DNA of 64,000 nt from a virus (IMGVR_UViG_3300031992_002338); one strand, 5' to 3'. Shown: positions 59,797-64,000, counted from the stretch's first letter. Numbers and translations: made by a program. Notes: generated by a model from the letters alone, not told the origin.

Positions 59797-59827
59797 AAAA
59801 AAAGCGAGAGTCACATAACTCTCGCTT
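59797..59827 (-). terminator. Intrinsic terminator
   Basis: aagcgagag...ctctcgctt with a U-tract. Confidence 0.7.
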
Positions 59828-59851: not shown

Positions 59852-60130
59852 TTAACACCTACCGTTGCTACTGCCGCAGCCACCACCTCCACCGCCACAT
59901 CTATCATTGTAGCTGTAAGATGATGAAGAGCCGCATCCACCTTCACTTGAAGAGCCACATGAAGAACAACCCAAATTGTTCTCTTGCCACAAGTATTGCA
60001 TCTTGTTTAGGTTATTCTTCCTAGCAATCTCCCTAACGATGGAATCAGTTAACGAATCAACCATTCCTTGAACTTTAGTCTTAACTATATCGGATAGTTC
60101 CTTTTCGGATAAAATAAACAATTTCTTCAT
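59852..60130 (-). CDS. Small protein with a helical leader and a six-Cys Gly/Ser-rich tail (RiPP precursor candidate)
   Basis: ...LGCSSCGSSSEGGCGSSSSYSYNDRCGGGGGGCGSSNGRC*. Confidence 0.65.
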   Translation of the reverse strand: MKKLFILSEKELSDIVKTKVQGMVDSLTDSIVREIARKNNLNKMQYLWQENNLGCSSCGSSSEGGCGSSSSYSYNDRCGGGGGGCGSSNGRC

Positions 60131-60179
60131 ATTCTATATACTTTATGCAAATATATAAAAAAAATCTGAGAATTCCAAA

Positions 60180-61043
60180 TTATATCCAATAAGGATGTAA
60201 ACTTCCATCCTCATATATCACACCAAAGCTGTATTTCTTCGCAAATAAGGCTCTTGTAGCTGCCTTAAACGTGTCGGAAAGCGTTGCATGGCGTAACTTA
60301 CACACCAAGAAGCAAACACGCTTCAGAACGAATTTTCCATCAAACGATGGAATCCAAGGTGTAATGTCGAACTCAGTCTTGCACCCATGAGCAAAAGGTG
60401 ACTTCAGCTTTATGCCAAATGCATCCTCGAATGATACATACATATCATCCCTATCAAACAATTCAGCAAGTTTGATGCTCTTAAATCCTAGTTTATTGTA
60501 ATGCTCAATGCAACGGCATATCTCTTCCTTTGTGCAAAGGAAAGGCTTAACCATGTTAATATTTATGGTAATCTTCTCTTTATGAGGTAACTCTGCATAG
60601 AATTTCTGCCTATCATAGAGTGATTTGTGGCCTCTAATCTTATCAGCAACTTCCTCGTCATAGTGCTGGGGAGATATTGAGATACCATCACAAAGGTCTA
60701 TAATTTCAAATAGTTCCTCTCTGTGCTTATATGCAGCATAAGGCAAAGACGTAATGATATACACCTTTAACTCTGTGTTATTTTTAACGAGTTTTACTAG
60801 CTTCAAAAGTTCAGCCATATAAATCATTGGCTCACCACCACTGATACCAACTGACTTAACTTCGTCTTTATGCTCAGAAATTCGCTGAAAAATCGACATA
60901 ACATCTGGTTTAGTACCTACACTATGTAAACCTTTGTTGAGTGCATCCACACAGAATGGACAGTTATTTGGGCATTTCTTCGTGAAATGAACTTGCAACT
61001 CACTTTCTATTTGGTCGCAAATATTGACGTTATACTTTATCAT
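60180..61043 (-). CDS. Radical SAM enzyme
   Basis: CPNNCPFC (CxxxCxxC) and ISGGEP; start revised to MIKYNV, overlapping the end of pnuC. Confidence 0.88.
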   Translation of the reverse strand: MIKYNVNICDQIESELQVHFTKKCPNNCPFCVDALNKGLHSVGTKPDVMSIFQRISEHKDEVKSVGISGGEPMIYMAELLKLVKLVKNNTELKVYIITSLPYAAYKHREELFEIIDLCDGISISPQHYDEEVADKIRGHKSLYDRQKFYAELPHKEKITININMVKPFLCTKEEICRCIEHYNKLGFKSIKLAELFDRDDMYVSFEDAFGIKLKSPFAHGCKTEFDITPWIPSFDGKFVLKRVCFLVCKLRHATLSDTFKAATRALFAKKYSFGVIYEDGSLHPYWI

Positions 61044-61716
61044 CTTTATTCCACATGTAATATCCATAAATACAATTGGCAGTCCAAAATACAAACTGAG
61101 CAACCATACACCAATCACCAGCTATTGCCCACATGATGATACTACCAAGGTCAATTATCAACCAATAGAACCAACTCTCCTTAAACCTCAATATCATAAG
61201 AATTTGAGCCACAAACGCTGGAACTGTAGTTATTGCGTCCATAAATGGCTGAGTGTCATTGGTTATTAGTAAACCATAAAACAATGCAACAGATGCTAAT
61301 GCAGTTGTTACGAGCATCAATACATTTTGTGTTACTGTAAGGTGACGTGTTTTTACCTCTAAGGATTCGTTGTTATAATGGCTATTCCAATGGAACATAC
61401 CATATAGCATAGTAACAAAATAAAATATGTTTTCTACAATCTCTCCGTATAGATTTTGCTGCAAACATAATATCACATATGTAATGAGCTGGGCAAAACC
61501 AAATACATAAAACGAAATCTTCTTTTGGCTGCATAAAACAACTGAGATAACACCAAGCATACCACTAGCAAGTGATAGCTTAGTGCCACCCATTACTAAC
61601 CCCACAAAGCCTTGTGTGAGTAAACCAACAAGCATGAATATCAAACCAAACCTAGTGAGGTTAAAACTATTTCCGCTTTCTAGGGTTATAACATCAGATA
61701 ATCTATTATTCGTCAT
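61030..61716 (-). CDS. pnuC: PnuC-family nicotinamide riboside/vitamin transporter
   Basis: Multi-TM; QNLYGE, YGMFHW, P.MDA.TT...VAQ.L...R..E.W.YW. Confidence 0.88.
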   Translation of the reverse strand: MTNNRLSDVITLESGNSFNLTRFGLIFMLVGLLTQGFVGLVMGGTKLSLASGMLGVISVVLCSQKKISFYVFGFAQLITYVILCLQQNLYGEIVENIFYFVTMLYGMFHWNSHYNNESLEVKTRHLTVTQNVLMLVTTALASVALFYGLLITNDTQPFMDAITTVPAFVAQILMILRFKESWFYWLIIDLGSIIMWAIAGDWCMVAQFVFWTANCIYGYYMWNKDDKV

Positions 61717-62794
61717 ATACCGAATTAATGTAATCTTTAACTCTGTTGAAATTGGCTAAGAAACTTCCATCAAGTATCTCTACCTTATCCCACAAACCAA
61801 ACTGCTTCAAAAGCTCTGTAAGCTTGTTAAAATTGGCAATACGCTCATCAATGGATGCTTGCTTCATGTAGCGGCTACCATCATCAACAAACTTGTTCTT
61901 TGGTGGTAACAAGAAAATCTTATCCCACTTAACACGGCCTTCAAGAGACTTTGCCACTGGCAACACCTTATTCTCATATTCCTCTTTTGTAATGGGAACA
62001 TTAGGGTCATCCACATATGCAAGGGCATACATCAATGTAACAAGGTTATCCGTATCTGAAATGAACACACCATTATCATTATTGAATACCCTCTTACGCA
62101 TGTCTAGGCTCTGTCCTACGAGGAAATCAACAAAATCGTCTGCTGTGAGGTCTGTATCAACCTTACCCTTATTGAGCAAGTCATCACGCCCAAACTCTTC
62201 TGAGTGCTGAATACCGAAATACGTTGAAATATCACGTACCAATGTGGTCTTACCCTCAGAAGCAGTACCAGTGATAAGGATATTATGACAGAGGTTATTG
62301 CGATACTCCCTTACGATGTACTTCCAATACTTGATAGGATTCTGACGAATGTAAGTTCCACTAACTGGCACTACCTTATCAATCAGAGTTATACGTGCAT
62401 TGAGTAAGTTATGCTTCTCAAGCATTTCCTTATAATAAGGCTCTGCAACATACCAAGTAATAGAAACACCATCATGCGAAGGTGTAATCTTGAGTTGACG
62501 CATTACCTCTTTCTGCCATATAATCCAATTATTATCACACATGGATTCGTCAATACCAAGCTGTGTGTCGTTGATTGACAAAACGTTGATAATCTCGTCA
62601 TTGGCAAATATCTTACGAACAATGGCAGTACGCTCTTTAAGAGTCATGTTGATGTTTCCAGCACGTTCCTCATTGTCATAACCACAAACAATAACAAAGC
62701 ACTTGTCATTCTCTTTCTTAGCCCTCATAATTGCGTCAAGGTGTCCTCTGTGCATTGGGCAATATCCACCGAAGCAAATTCCTATTTTAGTCAT
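61706..62794 (-). CDS. nadR: NadR-like bifunctional NMN adenylyltransferase / ribosylnicotinamide kinase (no HTH)
   Basis: HRGH nucleotidyltransferase motif, VSGT.IR, P-loop GTASEGKTT, EFGR, DTD, FVDDG.R. Confidence 0.85.
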   Translation of the reverse strand: MTKIGICFGGYCPMHRGHLDAIMRAKKENDKCFVIVCGYDNEERAGNINMTLKERTAIVRKIFANDEIINVLSINDTQLGIDESMCDNNWIIWQKEVMRQLKITPSHDGVSITWYVAEPYYKEMLEKHNLLNARITLIDKVVPVSGTYIRQNPIKYWKYIVREYRNNLCHNILITGTASEGKTTLVRDISTYFGIQHSEEFGRDDLLNKGKVDTDLTADDFVDFLVGQSLDMRKRVFNNDNGVFISDTDNLVTLMYALAYVDDPNVPITKEEYENKVLPVAKSLEGRVKWDKIFLLPPKNKFVDDGSRYMKQASIDERIANFNKLTELLKQFGLWDKVEILDGSFLANFNRVKDYINSVYDE

Positions 62795-63374
62795 AATACA
62801 AATCTAAAAAATCATGTAACGTATCTTCCAACTTGTCAACATACAAGTCGTAAATATTAAATAATTCATCAAAAATCTCATGCACCGCATGGTTAACCTC
62901 GTCAACCTCGCACTTGCAGCTTTCGTCAATTCTATCACTACAAGCACACTTCTCACAAGCAAATTCATTACCGTCACCATAATATCCAGTGGCAGCATGA
63001 TTATTTACAAGGTGAGTGAAATAAAGGAAATCCTTATTAGAGAAATCAACCCATCCAGTGAACTCAGCAGTAAGAGGCTGCTTATGATAGTCAATATCTA
63101 AATTGATGTCCTTTCTGATAAAGAACGTCTTTACACGCCCATCCTTATACAATGTCCTATACCACATGCTAAAAGCCGCAAATGAATAGCAAAGACAATG
63201 GCACATATAGAACTTAGACTTATCACTGTCCAATTCATCGTTAAGGTCACGTAGAATGTGTGGAATGAAAGGGCATATAACAATATATTGGTCTGTTTCT
63301 AGGTCAATATACTGCTTTCCGTACTCATACTTTTTCTTGGTCTTTTCCCAAGCATCTTTAAATGTCTTGTACAT
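62787..63374 (-). CDS. Hypothetical protein with Cys clusters
   Basis: CHCLC and CEKCAC...CKC; first gene after the promoter at 63398-63450. Confidence 0.65.
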   Translation of the reverse strand: MYKTFKDAWEKTKKKYEYGKQYIDLETDQYIVICPFIPHILRDLNDELDSDKSKFYMCHCLCYSFAAFSMWYRTLYKDGRVKTFFIRKDINLDIDYHKQPLTAEFTGWVDFSNKDFLYFTHLVNNHAATGYYGDGNEFACEKCACSDRIDESCKCEVDEVNHAVHEIFDELFNIYDLYVDKLEDTLHDFLDLYYD

Positions 63375-63397
63375 ATTGATTGATTTTTACTTTCTGC

Positions 63398-63450
63398 TGC
63401 AAAGGTACGAAAAAAAATTGGATTAGCAAAAAACTAACCCAATTTTTAAC
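63398..63450 (-). promoter_or_regulatory. Host-type promoter/stem-loop
   Basis: Minus strand TTTG...TACCTTTGCA with inverted repeat aaaaattgg/ccaattttt. Confidence 0.7.
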
Positions 63451-63465
63451 TTTATTTAATATTAT

Positions 63466-64000
63466 TTAGAATACATACTTAACCGATGCATAGAAACTGA
63501 TGGGAATGTCCACCATGTAACGAGGCTCGTTTGTGTTGGCAAGAATACCTGTCTGAAGGTTATCCCTATTGGTAATGTTGTTTATGTGAGCACTCAAGAT
63601 ATACTTGCTAATGCTATAACTGCCATAGAGATTAAGCTGCCATGCGTCAGGCACTGAATACTCATTTGCCGCATCAATATACATATGATTGCGATAGCTG
63701 TATTCAAGACCTACTGAATAGTTCTTGCCACGATACTCAGCATTCTGCCTAAACGTGCAGTTAGGAGTCATTACATGGCTCTTCTTGCCAAACGTAGCGG
63801 TCTCTACCTTGTTGTTAGACAGTGACGAATTATTAATGAGGTGAAATCCATTGAACGGCTCATAGTCAGCATAGAACTCAATACCGATACGGTGACTATT
63901 GTCTGCCTTTTCATGCTCTGGCAGTCCGTTCAGACCAATTGTACCTGTCAGTGCTCTCTCATTCTCAAACAGCATTGCAAAAAGGTTGAGGTTCATGTTC
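63466..64000 (-). CDS. TonB-dependent outer-membrane receptor, C-terminal part (partial)
   Basis: Amphipathic beta strands, Y.D..N...VP....LNL, INNITN and a terminal aromatic YVF; frame stays open to the right edge. Confidence 0.8.
   Translation of the reverse strand, partial: NMNLNLFAMLFENERALTGTIGLNGLPEHEKADNSHRIGIEFYADYEPFNGFHLINNSSLSNNKVETATFGKKSHVMTPNCTFRQNAEYRGKNYSVGLEYSYRNHMYIDAANEYSVPDAWQLNLYGSYSISKYILSAHINNITNRDNLQTGILANTNEPRYMVDIPISFYASVKYVF

What the first reader, a model, noticed from the sequence alone, without database searches (positions are those of the whole stretch)
60180..64000. Outer-membrane-to-NAD import route: TonB receptor, PnuC, NadR and a coupled radical SAM enzyme
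Seen: a TonB-dependent receptor is followed by an overlapping, apparently translationally coupled chain of Cys-rich ORF, NadR, PnuC and radical SAM. Known: PnuC plus NadR convert imported nicotinamide riboside to NAD and occur in some T4-like phages such as KVP40. Bacteroidota pair TonB receptors with Pnu transporters for thiamine uptake. The described anti-defence NAD pathways NARP1/NARP2 rebuild NAD from internal breakdown products. Inference: this phage installs its own two-membrane uptake route to replenish NAD from outside, countering NAD-depleting defences (Thoeris, SIR2/TIR) or fuelling its ARTs. The radical SAM enzyme may make or convert an unusual precursor.
Basis: partly seen in the sequence, partly recalled or inferred. 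Interest (0 to 1): 0.8.

Follow-up and report, generated by a model that had tools for sequence, protein, structure and literature searches.

The report
Phage NAD-precursor import across both membranes
A large gut or rumen phage carries an outer-membrane TonB-dependent transporter next to the known phage PnuC-NadR system that imports nicotinamide riboside and makes NAD, and relatives of this transporter sit beside PnuC and NadR in many huge phages and in Bacteroidota bacteria, so it probably supplies the missing outer-membrane step.

Summary
On the minus strand lie the last 177 codons of a TonB-dependent transporter (TBDT; 684 aa in a 99%-identical relative), then a hairpin and promoter. An overlapping chain follows: 195-aa Cys-rich ORF, NadR (no HTH domain), PnuC, radical SAM.

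The cassette is internal to jumbo phage genomes, including a 241-kb contig.

The key result is comparative. In all 13 informative contexts, at 29-50% TBDT identity, the TBDT lies near PnuC and a NadR-like gene, in four gene orders. These include:
- Prevotella Lak megaphages
- 735-kb phages
- a Draconibacterium-like Bacteroidota contig
- a bacterial-looking NrtR-PncA-PncB-TBDT-PnuC-NadR operon

This defines a TBDT family tied to NAD-precursor uptake. The phage genes are under strong purifying selection (dN/dS 0.04-0.13).

The inner part, PnuC plus NadR, was published in 2026 as the anti-defence system NARP3. Phage TBDTs have been noted, but read as SusC or as superinfection exclusion.

Two of the five genes are not part of the route:
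- The Cys-rich ORF sits in a variable slot.
- The radical SAM pairs with a downstream Cys/Gly/Ser-rich peptide and is lost together with it.

The substrate and any anti-defence role are untested. This is a new variant of a known kind.

The parts
63466..64000 (-). C-terminal 177 codons of a TonB-dependent outer-membrane transporter (full gene 684 aa; it runs off the window end)
   Evidence: Pfam barrel hit E 4.6e-4. The 99%-identical L002 ortholog has Plug PF07715 at E 4.5e-9, above cut-off, the signal peptide MKKFLVFMTAMMMFSASYA|D and the TonB-box-like LDELTVTS. The AF2 barrel matches PqqU, Fiu, YncD and FecA with Foldseek probability 1.0. dN/dS is 0.04-0.13.
63405..63447 (-). Terminator-like hairpin (15-bp stem, 63447-63413) followed by a T-run, between the TBDT and the next gene
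   Evidence: RNA fold dG -15.9 kcal/mol, z -3.2 against shuffles; sequence.
63400..63407 (-). TAccTTTG box (Bacteroidota-type -7 promoter motif TAnnTTTG) 33 nt upstream of the 195-aa ORF
   Evidence: The same box precedes the TBDT in L002 and orf92. The motif occurs 11 times, against 4.2 expected, upstream of minus-strand ORFs.
62787..63374 (-). 195-aa Cys-rich ORF of unknown function, first gene of the overlapping chain; an accessory gene in a variable slot
   Evidence: No Pfam, PHROG, NCBIfam or Atlas hit. No signal peptide. Present only in L001-L004; replaced by unrelated ORFs, or absent, in L005-L010, L013, L014 and L016.
61706..62794 (-). NadR-type bifunctional NMN adenylyltransferase / ribosylnicotinamide kinase without an HTH domain
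   Evidence: PF01467 + PF13521; phrog_3462 E 7.6e-59. PDB 6GYE E 4e-43, 1LW7, 8X7F, and 9X6F (the NARP3 enzyme Bas30_86) E 6e-16. The motifs PMHRGH, SGTYIR, GTASEGKTTL, DTD and DDGSR are conserved.
61030..61716 (-). PnuC-family inner-membrane nicotinamide riboside transporter
   Evidence: PF04973 E 1.6e-41. TIGR01528 scores 121.9 bits against a cut-off of 42.45. phrog_1880. PDB 4QTN E 1.4e-21.
60180..61043 (-). 287-aa radical SAM enzyme (CxxxCxxC plus three further invariant Cys); in the same operon but probably a separate function
   Evidence: PF04055 E 4.6e-13. All named NCBIfam families score below cut-off. Invariant residues are C9, C24/C28/C31, C221 and C244. The AF2 model has pLDDT 94 and its Foldseek top hits are CteB, SuiB, viperin, MoaA and EpeE.
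59852..60130 (-). 92-aa protein with a conserved N-terminal 'leader' and a hypervariable Cys/Gly/Ser-rich C-terminal core ending in Cys; candidate substrate of the radical SAM enzyme
   Evidence: An equivalent peptide follows the radical SAM gene in every related locus, and in the 43%-identical L016 lineage. Both genes are missing in L011.
59802..59827 (-). Strong intrinsic terminator (11-bp stem plus T-run) closing the operon before gp25

Best explanation
This jumbo myovirus encodes a three-part route for scavenging an NAD precursor. Its host is probably a gut or rumen member of the Bacteroidota.

1. A phage-made TonB-dependent transporter is exported through Sec, inserted in the host outer membrane and energised by the host TonB system. 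It brings a pyridine nucleoside or nucleotide into the periplasm. Nicotinamide riboside is the most likely substrate; NMN or NAD are possible.
2. Phage PnuC lets nicotinamide riboside cross the inner membrane.
3. Phage NadR traps it by phosphorylation to NMN (kinase domain) and adenylylates it to NAD+ (NMNAT domain).

The PnuC-NadR half is the published NARP3 system; the TBDT is an outer-membrane extension of it.

Shown here:
- the identity and intactness of the three proteins;
- their conserved linkage across distant phages and bacteria;
- purifying selection on the TBDT.

Inferred:
- the substrate;
- dependence on host TonB;
- the purpose, which could be raising NAD+ during infection to counter NAD-depleting defences or simply meeting phage demand.

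The 195-aa Cys-rich ORF and the radical SAM/peptide pair share the operon but are not part of the route.
For: Protein identities.

Phage-internal location: the cassette lies at 115-137 kb of a 241,681-bp IMG/VR contig, next to gp25 and baseplate wedge genes.

Synteny in the close clade: TBDT-NadR-PnuC is present in all 8 loci with a full upstream flank.

Linkage at 29-50% TBDT identity, in four gene orders:
- L013, L014/L015 and L016: TBDT..NadR..PnuC
- L017/L018: NadR-PnuC-TBDT
- L019: TBDT-NadR
- L020: NrtR-PncA-PncB-TBDT-PnuC-NadR-like
- L021: TBDT-PnuC-NadR-like, on a 162-kb contig whose neighbouring gene is 89% identical to Draconibacterium
- P0141 and P0137: TBDT-PnuC-NadR-like; P0137 also has NAPRTase, Nudix and NAD synthase nearby
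- P0200: PnuC-TBDT-NadR
- Prevotella phage Lak-A1: TBDT, about 5 kb, then NadR-PnuC
- 735-kb phage LR756501: TBDT-PnuC-NadR

Selection: TBDT dN/dS is 0.04-0.13 and every ortholog keeps a signal peptide.

Experimental support from the literature: NARP3 shows that phage PnuC+NadR import nicotinamide riboside and restore NAD+ against Sir2-HerA (PMC13464706). A Lak-phage TBDT is transcribed in human gut metatranscriptomes (bioRxiv 10.64898/2026.10.24.761521).
Against: - No substrate can be read from the TBDT sequence. Its nearest solved relatives are siderophore, PQQ, heme and metal transporters at 10-18% identity, and all NCBIfam matches are far below cut-off.
- The TBDT is a separate transcription unit, with a hairpin and its own promoter box. 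In Lak-A1 it lies about 5 kb from NadR.
- The plug region of the model is poorly predicted, with pLDDT below 50.
- Nicotinamide riboside (255 Da) is small enough to pass through porins in many bacteria, so an active outer-membrane step is not self-evidently needed.
- No NAD-depleting defence or host is identified.
- Some synteny among the huge phages may reflect shared ancestry rather than independent retention.
Confidence: 0.7

Rival explanations
1. The TBDT is a surface-remodelling protein: it excludes superinfecting phages, or masks or acts as a decoy for a receptor. Its position beside PnuC-NadR would then be a leftover from capturing a bacterial operon as one block, with no transport role in the phage.
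For: The 2026 preprint on huge-phage outer-membrane proteins favours receptor interference. It cites lambda Lom blocking LamB. TBDTs are common phage receptors: FhuA bound by T5 pb5 and by Llp appears among the structural matches. The TBDT has its own promoter and terminator.
Against: Linkage to PnuC/NadR survives four different gene orders and down to 29-30% identity, including a bacterial-looking NAD salvage operon. The plug, the TonB-box-like motif and the barrel are under strong purifying selection, which an inert surface mask would not need.
Confidence: 0.12
2. The TBDT imports a different cargo, such as thiamine or another vitamin, heme or iron, or a peptide-derived product of the neighbouring radical SAM/peptide pair. 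It is then only loosely associated with the NAD genes.
For: Sequence and fold matches are to siderophore, heme and PQQ transporters. From general knowledge, Pnu-family transporters also carry thiamine (PnuT) and riboflavin (PnuX), and Bacteroides pairs a TBDT with PnuT. A radical SAM enzyme and a Cys-rich peptide share the operon here and in L016.
Against: The kinase partner in the examined contexts is NadR-like (AAA_28), never a thiamine pyrophosphokinase. L020 adds NrtR, PncA and PncB; P0137 adds NAPRTase, Nudix and NAD synthase. Most TBDT-PnuC-NadR loci have no radical SAM gene, and L011 keeps NadR-PnuC without it.
Confidence: 0.1
3. All five genes form one pathway. The radical SAM enzyme would convert an unusual imported precursor into a substrate for NadR.
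For: The PnuC stop and the radical SAM start overlap by 14 nt. Orthologous radical SAM genes lie within a few kb of NadR/PnuC or an AAA_28 kinase in three further lineages: L016, P0391 and P0408. Viperin and MoaA, which act on nucleotides, are among the fold matches.
Against: The radical SAM is absent within about 6 kb of the TBDT in L013, L014, L017, L020 and L021, and no radical SAM gene is among those listed near P0137, P0141 and LR756501. In L011 it is lost together with the downstream peptide while NadR-PnuC stays. It always comes with a leader-plus-Cys-core peptide. Peptide-modifying CteB, SuiB and EpeE are equally good fold matches. NadR needs no such step for NR.
Confidence: 0.05

Closest known systems
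NARP3 (phage PnuC-like Bas30_87 + HTH-less NadR-like Bas30_86 of Escherichia phage TrudiRoth; Sci Adv 2026, PMC13464706)
   Same: An adjacent PnuC-family transporter and a bifunctional RNK+NMNAT NadR lacking the HTH domain, carried by a phage. The window's NadR matches the Bas30_86 structure 9X6F at E 6e-16.
   Different: About 26% identity to the NadR of T5-like Salmonella and Escherichia phages. The gene order here is NadR then PnuC. The main difference is a dedicated outer-membrane TonB-dependent transporter, which the NARP3 paper does not mention ('tonb' 0 and 'outer membrane' 0 occurrences). The host is probably Bacteroidota, not Enterobacteriaceae.
TonB-dependent receptors noted in huge phages (Lak phages and others, bioRxiv 10.64898/2026.10.24.761521; Mar_Mega_1 and LR745206 'SusC', PMC9723777)
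   Same: The same kind of gene, and in part the same family: 15 Lak phages match at 39-41% identity, and LR756501-3 and LR745206 at 29-30%. The preprint notes NMN-transporter genes among the neighbours of large phage outer-membrane proteins.
   Different: Those papers read the protein as a carbohydrate SusC or as a possible superinfection-exclusion factor. Neither defines a TBDT-PnuC-NadR unit nor links it to bacterial NAD operons. This protein is 684 aa. No SusD-like gene was recognised beside it in the window clade, where the neighbouring ORFs gave no family hit.
Bacteroides thetaiotaomicron thiamine route: outer-membrane TBDT (OMthi) + PnuT + thiamine pyrophosphokinase (general knowledge; not tested here)
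   Same: The same logic: a TBDT across the outer membrane, a Pnu-family facilitator across the inner membrane, and a kinase that traps the vitamin.
   Different: The trapping enzyme here is NadR (NR kinase + NMNAT) rather than a thiamine pyrophosphokinase. The bacterial-looking relative L020 sits in an NrtR/PncA/PncB NAD operon. Homology to OMthi could not be tested.
Haemophilus influenzae NAD/NR uptake: OmpP2 porin, NadN and e(P4) periplasmic processing, PnuC, NadR (general knowledge)
   Same: A two-membrane route ending in PnuC and NadR; the window's NadR matches H. influenzae NadR 1LW7.
   Different: The outer-membrane step there is a passive porin plus periplasmic nucleotidases. Here it is an energised TBDT, and no periplasmic nucleotidase was seen in the cassette.

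Membership tests
TonB-dependent transporter (TBDT) | N-terminal plug domain (PF07715) | tested here: met
   The L002 ortholog, 99% identical to the window fragment, scores 37.2 bits against a cut-off of 23.9; L005 scores 33.1 bits. This part lies beyond the window edge.
TonB-dependent transporter (TBDT) | 22-strand beta-barrel with a C-terminal aromatic residue | tested here: met
   The AF2 barrel covers residues 171-683 with block-mean pLDDT mostly 60-88. Foldseek probability is 1.0 to PqqU, Fiu, YncD, FecA, FhuA and BtuB. The window fragment ends in ...KYVF. Strands were not counted exactly.
TonB-dependent transporter (TBDT) | Sec signal peptide and TonB box | tested here: inconclusive
   A signal-peptide-like N-terminus (MKK, hydrophobic stretch, YA|D/E/S) is present in all 7 orthologs. 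The LDELTVTS motif resembles a TonB box but was judged by eye only. No TonB_C domain was found in the 241-kb relative, so a host TonB would be needed.
NARP3 (phage PnuC + NadR NAD+ reconstitution) | PnuC-type NR transporter and HTH-less NadR with RNK and NMNAT domains, encoded side by side on a phage | tested here: met
   The two genes overlap by 11 nt. Phage context.
NARP3 (phage PnuC + NadR NAD+ reconstitution) | Imports NR, makes NAD+ and rescues the phage from NAD-depleting defence (Sir2-HerA) | not testable with these tools
   This needs uptake, enzyme and infection assays.
NadR bifunctional enzyme | NMNAT motifs (H/T)xGH and ISSTxxR; RNK Walker A, Walker B-like DTD and LID arginine | tested here: met
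   PMHRGH, SGTYIR, GTASEGKTTL, DTD and DDGSR align with the equivalent motifs of 6GYE and 1LW7. TIGR01526 scores 181.9 bits, below its equivalog cut-off of 341, so this is a divergent member.
PnuC (nicotinamide riboside transporter) | PF04973 / TIGR01528 profile match above the curated cut-offs, and a kinase partner specific for NR | tested here: met
   142.6 bits against 27.3, and 121.9 bits against 42.45. The partner is NadR. Substrate-binding residues were not verified: an Asp replaces the Asn of 4QTN in the W..W...N motif.
SusC/SusD-type glycan importer | SusC-type TBDT (about 1000 aa, with an N-terminal extension) and an adjacent SusD-like lipoprotein | tested here: not met
   The protein is 684 aa and Plug is its only N-terminal domain. 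The neighbouring ORFs scanned in the window, L002 and L005 gave no SusD-like or any other family hit. The 195-aa neighbour has no signal peptide.
NrdG (anaerobic RNR activase), for the radical SAM gene | Match to NrdG models above cut-off and a length of about 150-190 aa | tested here: not met
TIGR02495 scores 33.6 bits against a cut-off of 131; the protein is 287 aa.
SPASM-type RiPP maturase, for the radical SAM gene | C-terminal SPASM or twitch domain with auxiliary clusters | tested here: inconclusive
   There is no SPASM Pfam hit. Three extra invariant Cys (C9, C221, C244) could hold an auxiliary cluster. CteB, SuiB and EpeE are top fold matches, but so are viperin and MoaA.

The most novel reading that the evidence does not exclude
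There is an unrecognised family of TonB-dependent transporters specific for NAD precursors (NR, NMN or NAD) in Bacteroidota. Several lineages of huge phages (rumen jumbo myoviruses, Prevotella Lak megaphages, 600-735-kb phages) have captured it together with PnuC and NadR. An infected cell is thereby refitted with a complete, energised, envelope-spanning NAD supply line, an outer-membrane-extended NARP3. This would be both a new substrate class for TBDTs and a phage that installs a working 22-strand outer-membrane transporter as a metabolic or counter-defence device.
Probability: 0.55. Interest if true: 0.75.

Novelty: new variant of a known kind. Interest (0 to 1): 0.62.

Why it matters
- If the TBDT does carry an NAD precursor, it fills a gap for diderm hosts in the NARP3 model, which so far covers only the inner membrane and cytoplasm.
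- It would also name a substrate for a widespread, unannotated TBDT family in Bacteroidota. These proteins are usually mislabelled 'iron complex outer-membrane receptor' or 'SusC'.
- It gives a concrete, testable function to the TonB-dependent receptors recently seen, and transcribed, in Lak and other gut megaphages.
- It would show that large phages invest in outer-membrane protein biogenesis for nutrient capture. That bears on NAD-centred phage-defence conflicts and on vitamin B3 economics in gut communities.

Tried and rejected
- No whole genome is held for the window.
- Megablast of the region against GenBank phages found nothing, and an exact 45-mer was not in IMG/VR. The full TBDT was therefore read from a relative 99% identical over the window fragment.
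- The genome-contig scan with a TBDT alignment found only one locus, a 'Clostridia' MAG contig that looks like mis-binned phage DNA. Bacterial members had to be found through the protein collections instead.
- NCBIfam and PDB sequence searches gave no informative subfamily for the TBDT.
- TonB_C was not found in the 241-kb relative. NAD-dependent ligase was not found in four relatives. There is thus no evidence for a phage TonB or for a ligase-driven NAD demand in this clade, though these records are only 32-75% complete.
- The Atlas search and all profile libraries were blank for the 195-aa Cys-rich ORF.
- The idea that the radical SAM is NrdG was rejected.
- The fold search could not decide between a peptide-modifying and a nucleotide-modifying radical SAM.
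- One context look-up (P0250) fell on a 3.4-kb contig and was uninformative.
- Literature searches found no paper describing a TBDT linked to NR or NAD uptake in bacteria. Absence from this library is not proof.

Full report
**What is there**

All genes of the region lie on the minus strand. In the direction of transcription they are:

1. The last 177 codons of a gene that runs off the window end (63999..63466).
2. A 91-nt spacer.
3. A 195-aa ORF (63374..62787).
4. NadR (62794..61706).
5. PnuC (61716..61030).
6. A radical SAM enzyme (61043..60180, taking the ATG).
7. A 92-aa ORF (60130..59852).
8. A strong terminator (59827..59802).
9. Baseplate genes gp25 and a wedge subunit.

The overlaps between the 195-aa ORF, NadR, PnuC and the radical SAM gene are 8, 11 and 14 nt.

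One point needs correcting. The transporter gene is not coupled to the chain. After its stop codon come a 15-bp hairpin with a T-run (dG -15.9 kcal/mol, z -3.2) and a TAccTTTG box. The same TAnnTTTG box precedes the transporter gene in a close relative and precedes the 92-aa ORF. This is the Bacteroidota-type -7 promoter motif (general knowledge). It occurs 11 times upstream of minus-strand ORFs against 4.2 expected, which is weak support for a Bacteroidota host.

**The truncated gene is a TonB-dependent transporter**

Within the window the evidence is thin: a barrel hit below Pfam's cut-off and a terminal Phe. No genome is held for the window. Twelve related IMG/VR loci were recovered through NadR.

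In L002 the ortholog is 99% identical over the window fragment and 684 aa long. It has:
- a signal peptide, a TonB-box-like LDELTVTS motif and a Plug domain above cut-off;
- an AlphaFold barrel (block-mean pLDDT mostly 60-88; the plug is poorly modelled) that matches PqqU, Fiu, YncD, FecA, FhuA and BtuB with Foldseek probability 1.0.

Seven phage orthologs give dN/dS of 0.04-0.13 where synonymous sites are not saturated, and all keep the signal peptide. The gene is intact and under selection.

**It is phage DNA, not a host flank**

The cassette sits at 115-137 kb of a 241,681-bp viral contig (L005). It abuts the baseplate module in all relatives. Notes from neighbouring windows describe further phage genes beyond the window end.

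**The decisive evidence is comparative**

Close clade. TBDT-NadR-PnuC is present in all 8 loci with a full upstream flank.

Wider family. The TBDT family grades from 99% down to about 30% identity: 2,084 hits in 1.8 billion representatives, 519 of them below E 1e-30. I examined the context of homologs at 29-50% identity. Every informative one lies next to, or in Lak-A1 within about 5 kb of, a PnuC and a NadR-like gene:

| Locus or protein | Arrangement | Context |
|---|---|---|
| L013 | TBDT..NadR..PnuC | GC 45%, ligase upstream |
| L014/L015 | TBDT..NadR..PnuC | 474-kb contig, GC 25%, PolB and SmpB |
| L016 | TBDT..NadR..PnuC | mis-binned 'Clostridia' MAG contig |
| L017/L018 | NadR-PnuC-TBDT | |
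| L019 | TBDT-NadR | |
| L020 | NrtR-PncA-PncB-TBDT-PnuC-NadR-like | |
| L021 | TBDT-PnuC-NadR-like | 162-kb contig |
| P0141 | TBDT-PnuC-NadR-like | |
| P0137 | TBDT-PnuC-NadR-like | NAPRTase, Nudix, NAD synthase nearby |
| P0200 | PnuC-TBDT-NadR | |
| Prevotella phage Lak-A1 | TBDT, ~5 kb, NadR-PnuC | |
| LR756501 | TBDT-PnuC-NadR | 735-kb phage |

The L021 neighbour gene is 89% identical to Draconibacterium (Bacteroidota), so bacterial members exist.

The neighbourhood is kept through four gene orders, very different GC contents and different flanking genes. L020 is a bacterial-looking operon headed by an NrtR regulator. Together this is the classical signature of functional coupling. It assigns the family to NAD-precursor acquisition.

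**The inner half is a known system**

The window's NadR has no HTH domain. It keeps the NMNAT motifs (PMHRGH, SGTYIR) and the kinase motifs (GTASEGKTTL, DTD, DDGSR), aligned to 6GYE and 1LW7. It also matches 9X6F, the crystal structure of Bas30_86.

PnuC passes the Pfam and NCBIfam cut-offs and matches 4QTN.

A 2026 paper showed that such a phage PnuC+NadR pair (NARP3) imports nicotinamide riboside, makes NAD+ and defeats Sir2-HerA (PMC13464706). It deals with enterobacterial phages and never mentions TonB or the outer membrane.

A 2024 survey of gut jumbo phages lists pnuC and nadR, also without any outer-membrane component (PMC11662467).

**What has been said about phage TonB-dependent receptors**

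- A 2021 paper called the megaphage gene 'SusC' and suggested carbohydrate uptake (PMC9723777).
- An October 2026 preprint catalogues 22-stranded outer-membrane proteins in gut huge phages and shows transcription of the Lak one. It notes in passing that NMN-transporter genes occur among their neighbours, but it discusses superinfection exclusion.
- The original Lak paper is silent on the matter.
- I found no description of an NR- or NAD-linked TBDT in bacteria.

So the trio as a unit, and the family's tie to NAD metabolism, appear to be new. Each of its parts has been seen before.

**Mechanism proposed**

- The phage TBDT is exported by Sec and inserted in the host outer membrane.
- It is driven by the host TonB; no TonB_C domain was found in the 241-kb relative.
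- It concentrates a pyridine precursor in the periplasm.
- PnuC passes nicotinamide riboside inward, and NadR traps and converts it to NAD+.
- In Bacteroidota, small vitamins such as thiamine and B12 are taken up through TBDTs (general knowledge), which makes an energised step for a 255-Da nucleoside plausible.

Whether the cargo is NR itself, or NMN or NAD processed in the periplasm, is open. No periplasmic nucleotidase is visible in the cassette. The purpose, counter-defence or general NAD supply, is inference.

**The other two genes**

The 195-aa Cys-rich ORF has no signal peptide and no detectable relatives outside L001-L004. Its position between the TBDT and NadR is a variable slot. Relatives carry there a different roughly 160-aa family, a GNAT-like ORF, other small ORFs, or nothing at all in L006.

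The radical SAM enzyme belongs to a small family: 133 hits, many of them on contigs of 150-430 kb. It recurs within a few kb of NadR/PnuC or an AAA_28 kinase in three further lineages. It is, however, absent from most TBDT-PnuC-NadR loci.

In every locus that has it, a small protein follows. That protein has a conserved N-terminal region and a hypervariable Cys/Gly/Ser-rich tail ending in Cys. In L011 both genes are missing together while NadR-PnuC remain.

The enzyme has three invariant Cys besides the CxxxCxxC motif. Its confident model (pLDDT 94) matches the peptide-modifying enzymes CteB, SuiB and EpeE about as well as it matches viperin and MoaA. The most economical reading is a radical SAM/peptide pair, RiPP-like, that is a neighbour of the NAD route rather than a step in it.

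**Verdict**

The five-gene pathway is reduced to three genes. The anti-defence idea is now partly precedented by NARP3. The new element is the outer-membrane component and the TBDT family it reveals.

Noticed in passing
window 59852-61043; also L001-L010, L012 and L016:6521-8136: A radical SAM enzyme is always followed by an 89-132-aa protein. That protein has a conserved N-terminal 'leader' (MKKLFILSEKELS...VD..T..I.R..AR.N) and a hypervariable C-terminal core of GGCG(S/G)-type repeats ending in Cys. Both genes are absent in L011. This looks like a RiPP precursor/maturase pair confined to gut jumbo phages. In one distant lineage (P0408) a flavodoxin-like gene sits just upstream of the radical SAM gene.
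   Followed up: partly
window 61030-61716 (PnuC), residue D189: In the W..W...N motif of N. mucosa PnuC (4QTN), the TBDT-linked PnuCs of phages and bacteria carry Asp instead of Asn in 9 of the 10 sequences aligned; L017 keeps Asn. The meaning for substrate preference is unknown.
   Followed up: partly
window 60001-64000: G+C rises to 0.36-0.39 here against about 0.30-0.34 in most of the rest of the window. This is consistent with a cassette acquired from a host of higher G+C.
   Followed up: no
L014:12997-13545, L016:4382-4990 and the P0137 context: Other NAD- or ADP-ribose-related genes gather around the TBDT-NadR-PnuC trio in other huge phages. These are a NADAR domain protein (L014), a SLOG/YspA-family protein between NadR and PnuC (L016), and NAPRTase, Nudix and NAD synthase with an Acb1-like gene nearby (P0137).
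   Followed up: no
L016 (JAFRDD010000051.1) and protein P0406: Contigs binned as 'Clostridia bacterium' or 'Clostridium perfringens' MAGs carry the TBDT cassette or the phage radical SAM gene. They look like mis-binned jumbo-phage DNA, since a TonB-dependent receptor makes little sense in a monoderm bacterium.
   Followed up: no
L002:818-2977 and L005:1370-5268: Upstream of the cassette the relatives carry a class III ribonucleotide reductase NrdD (L002) and HNH/NUMOD4/DUF723 homing-endonuclease-like genes (L005). L010 has an insertion of about 1.1 kb between PnuC and the radical SAM gene with no ORF of 50 aa or more.
   Followed up: no
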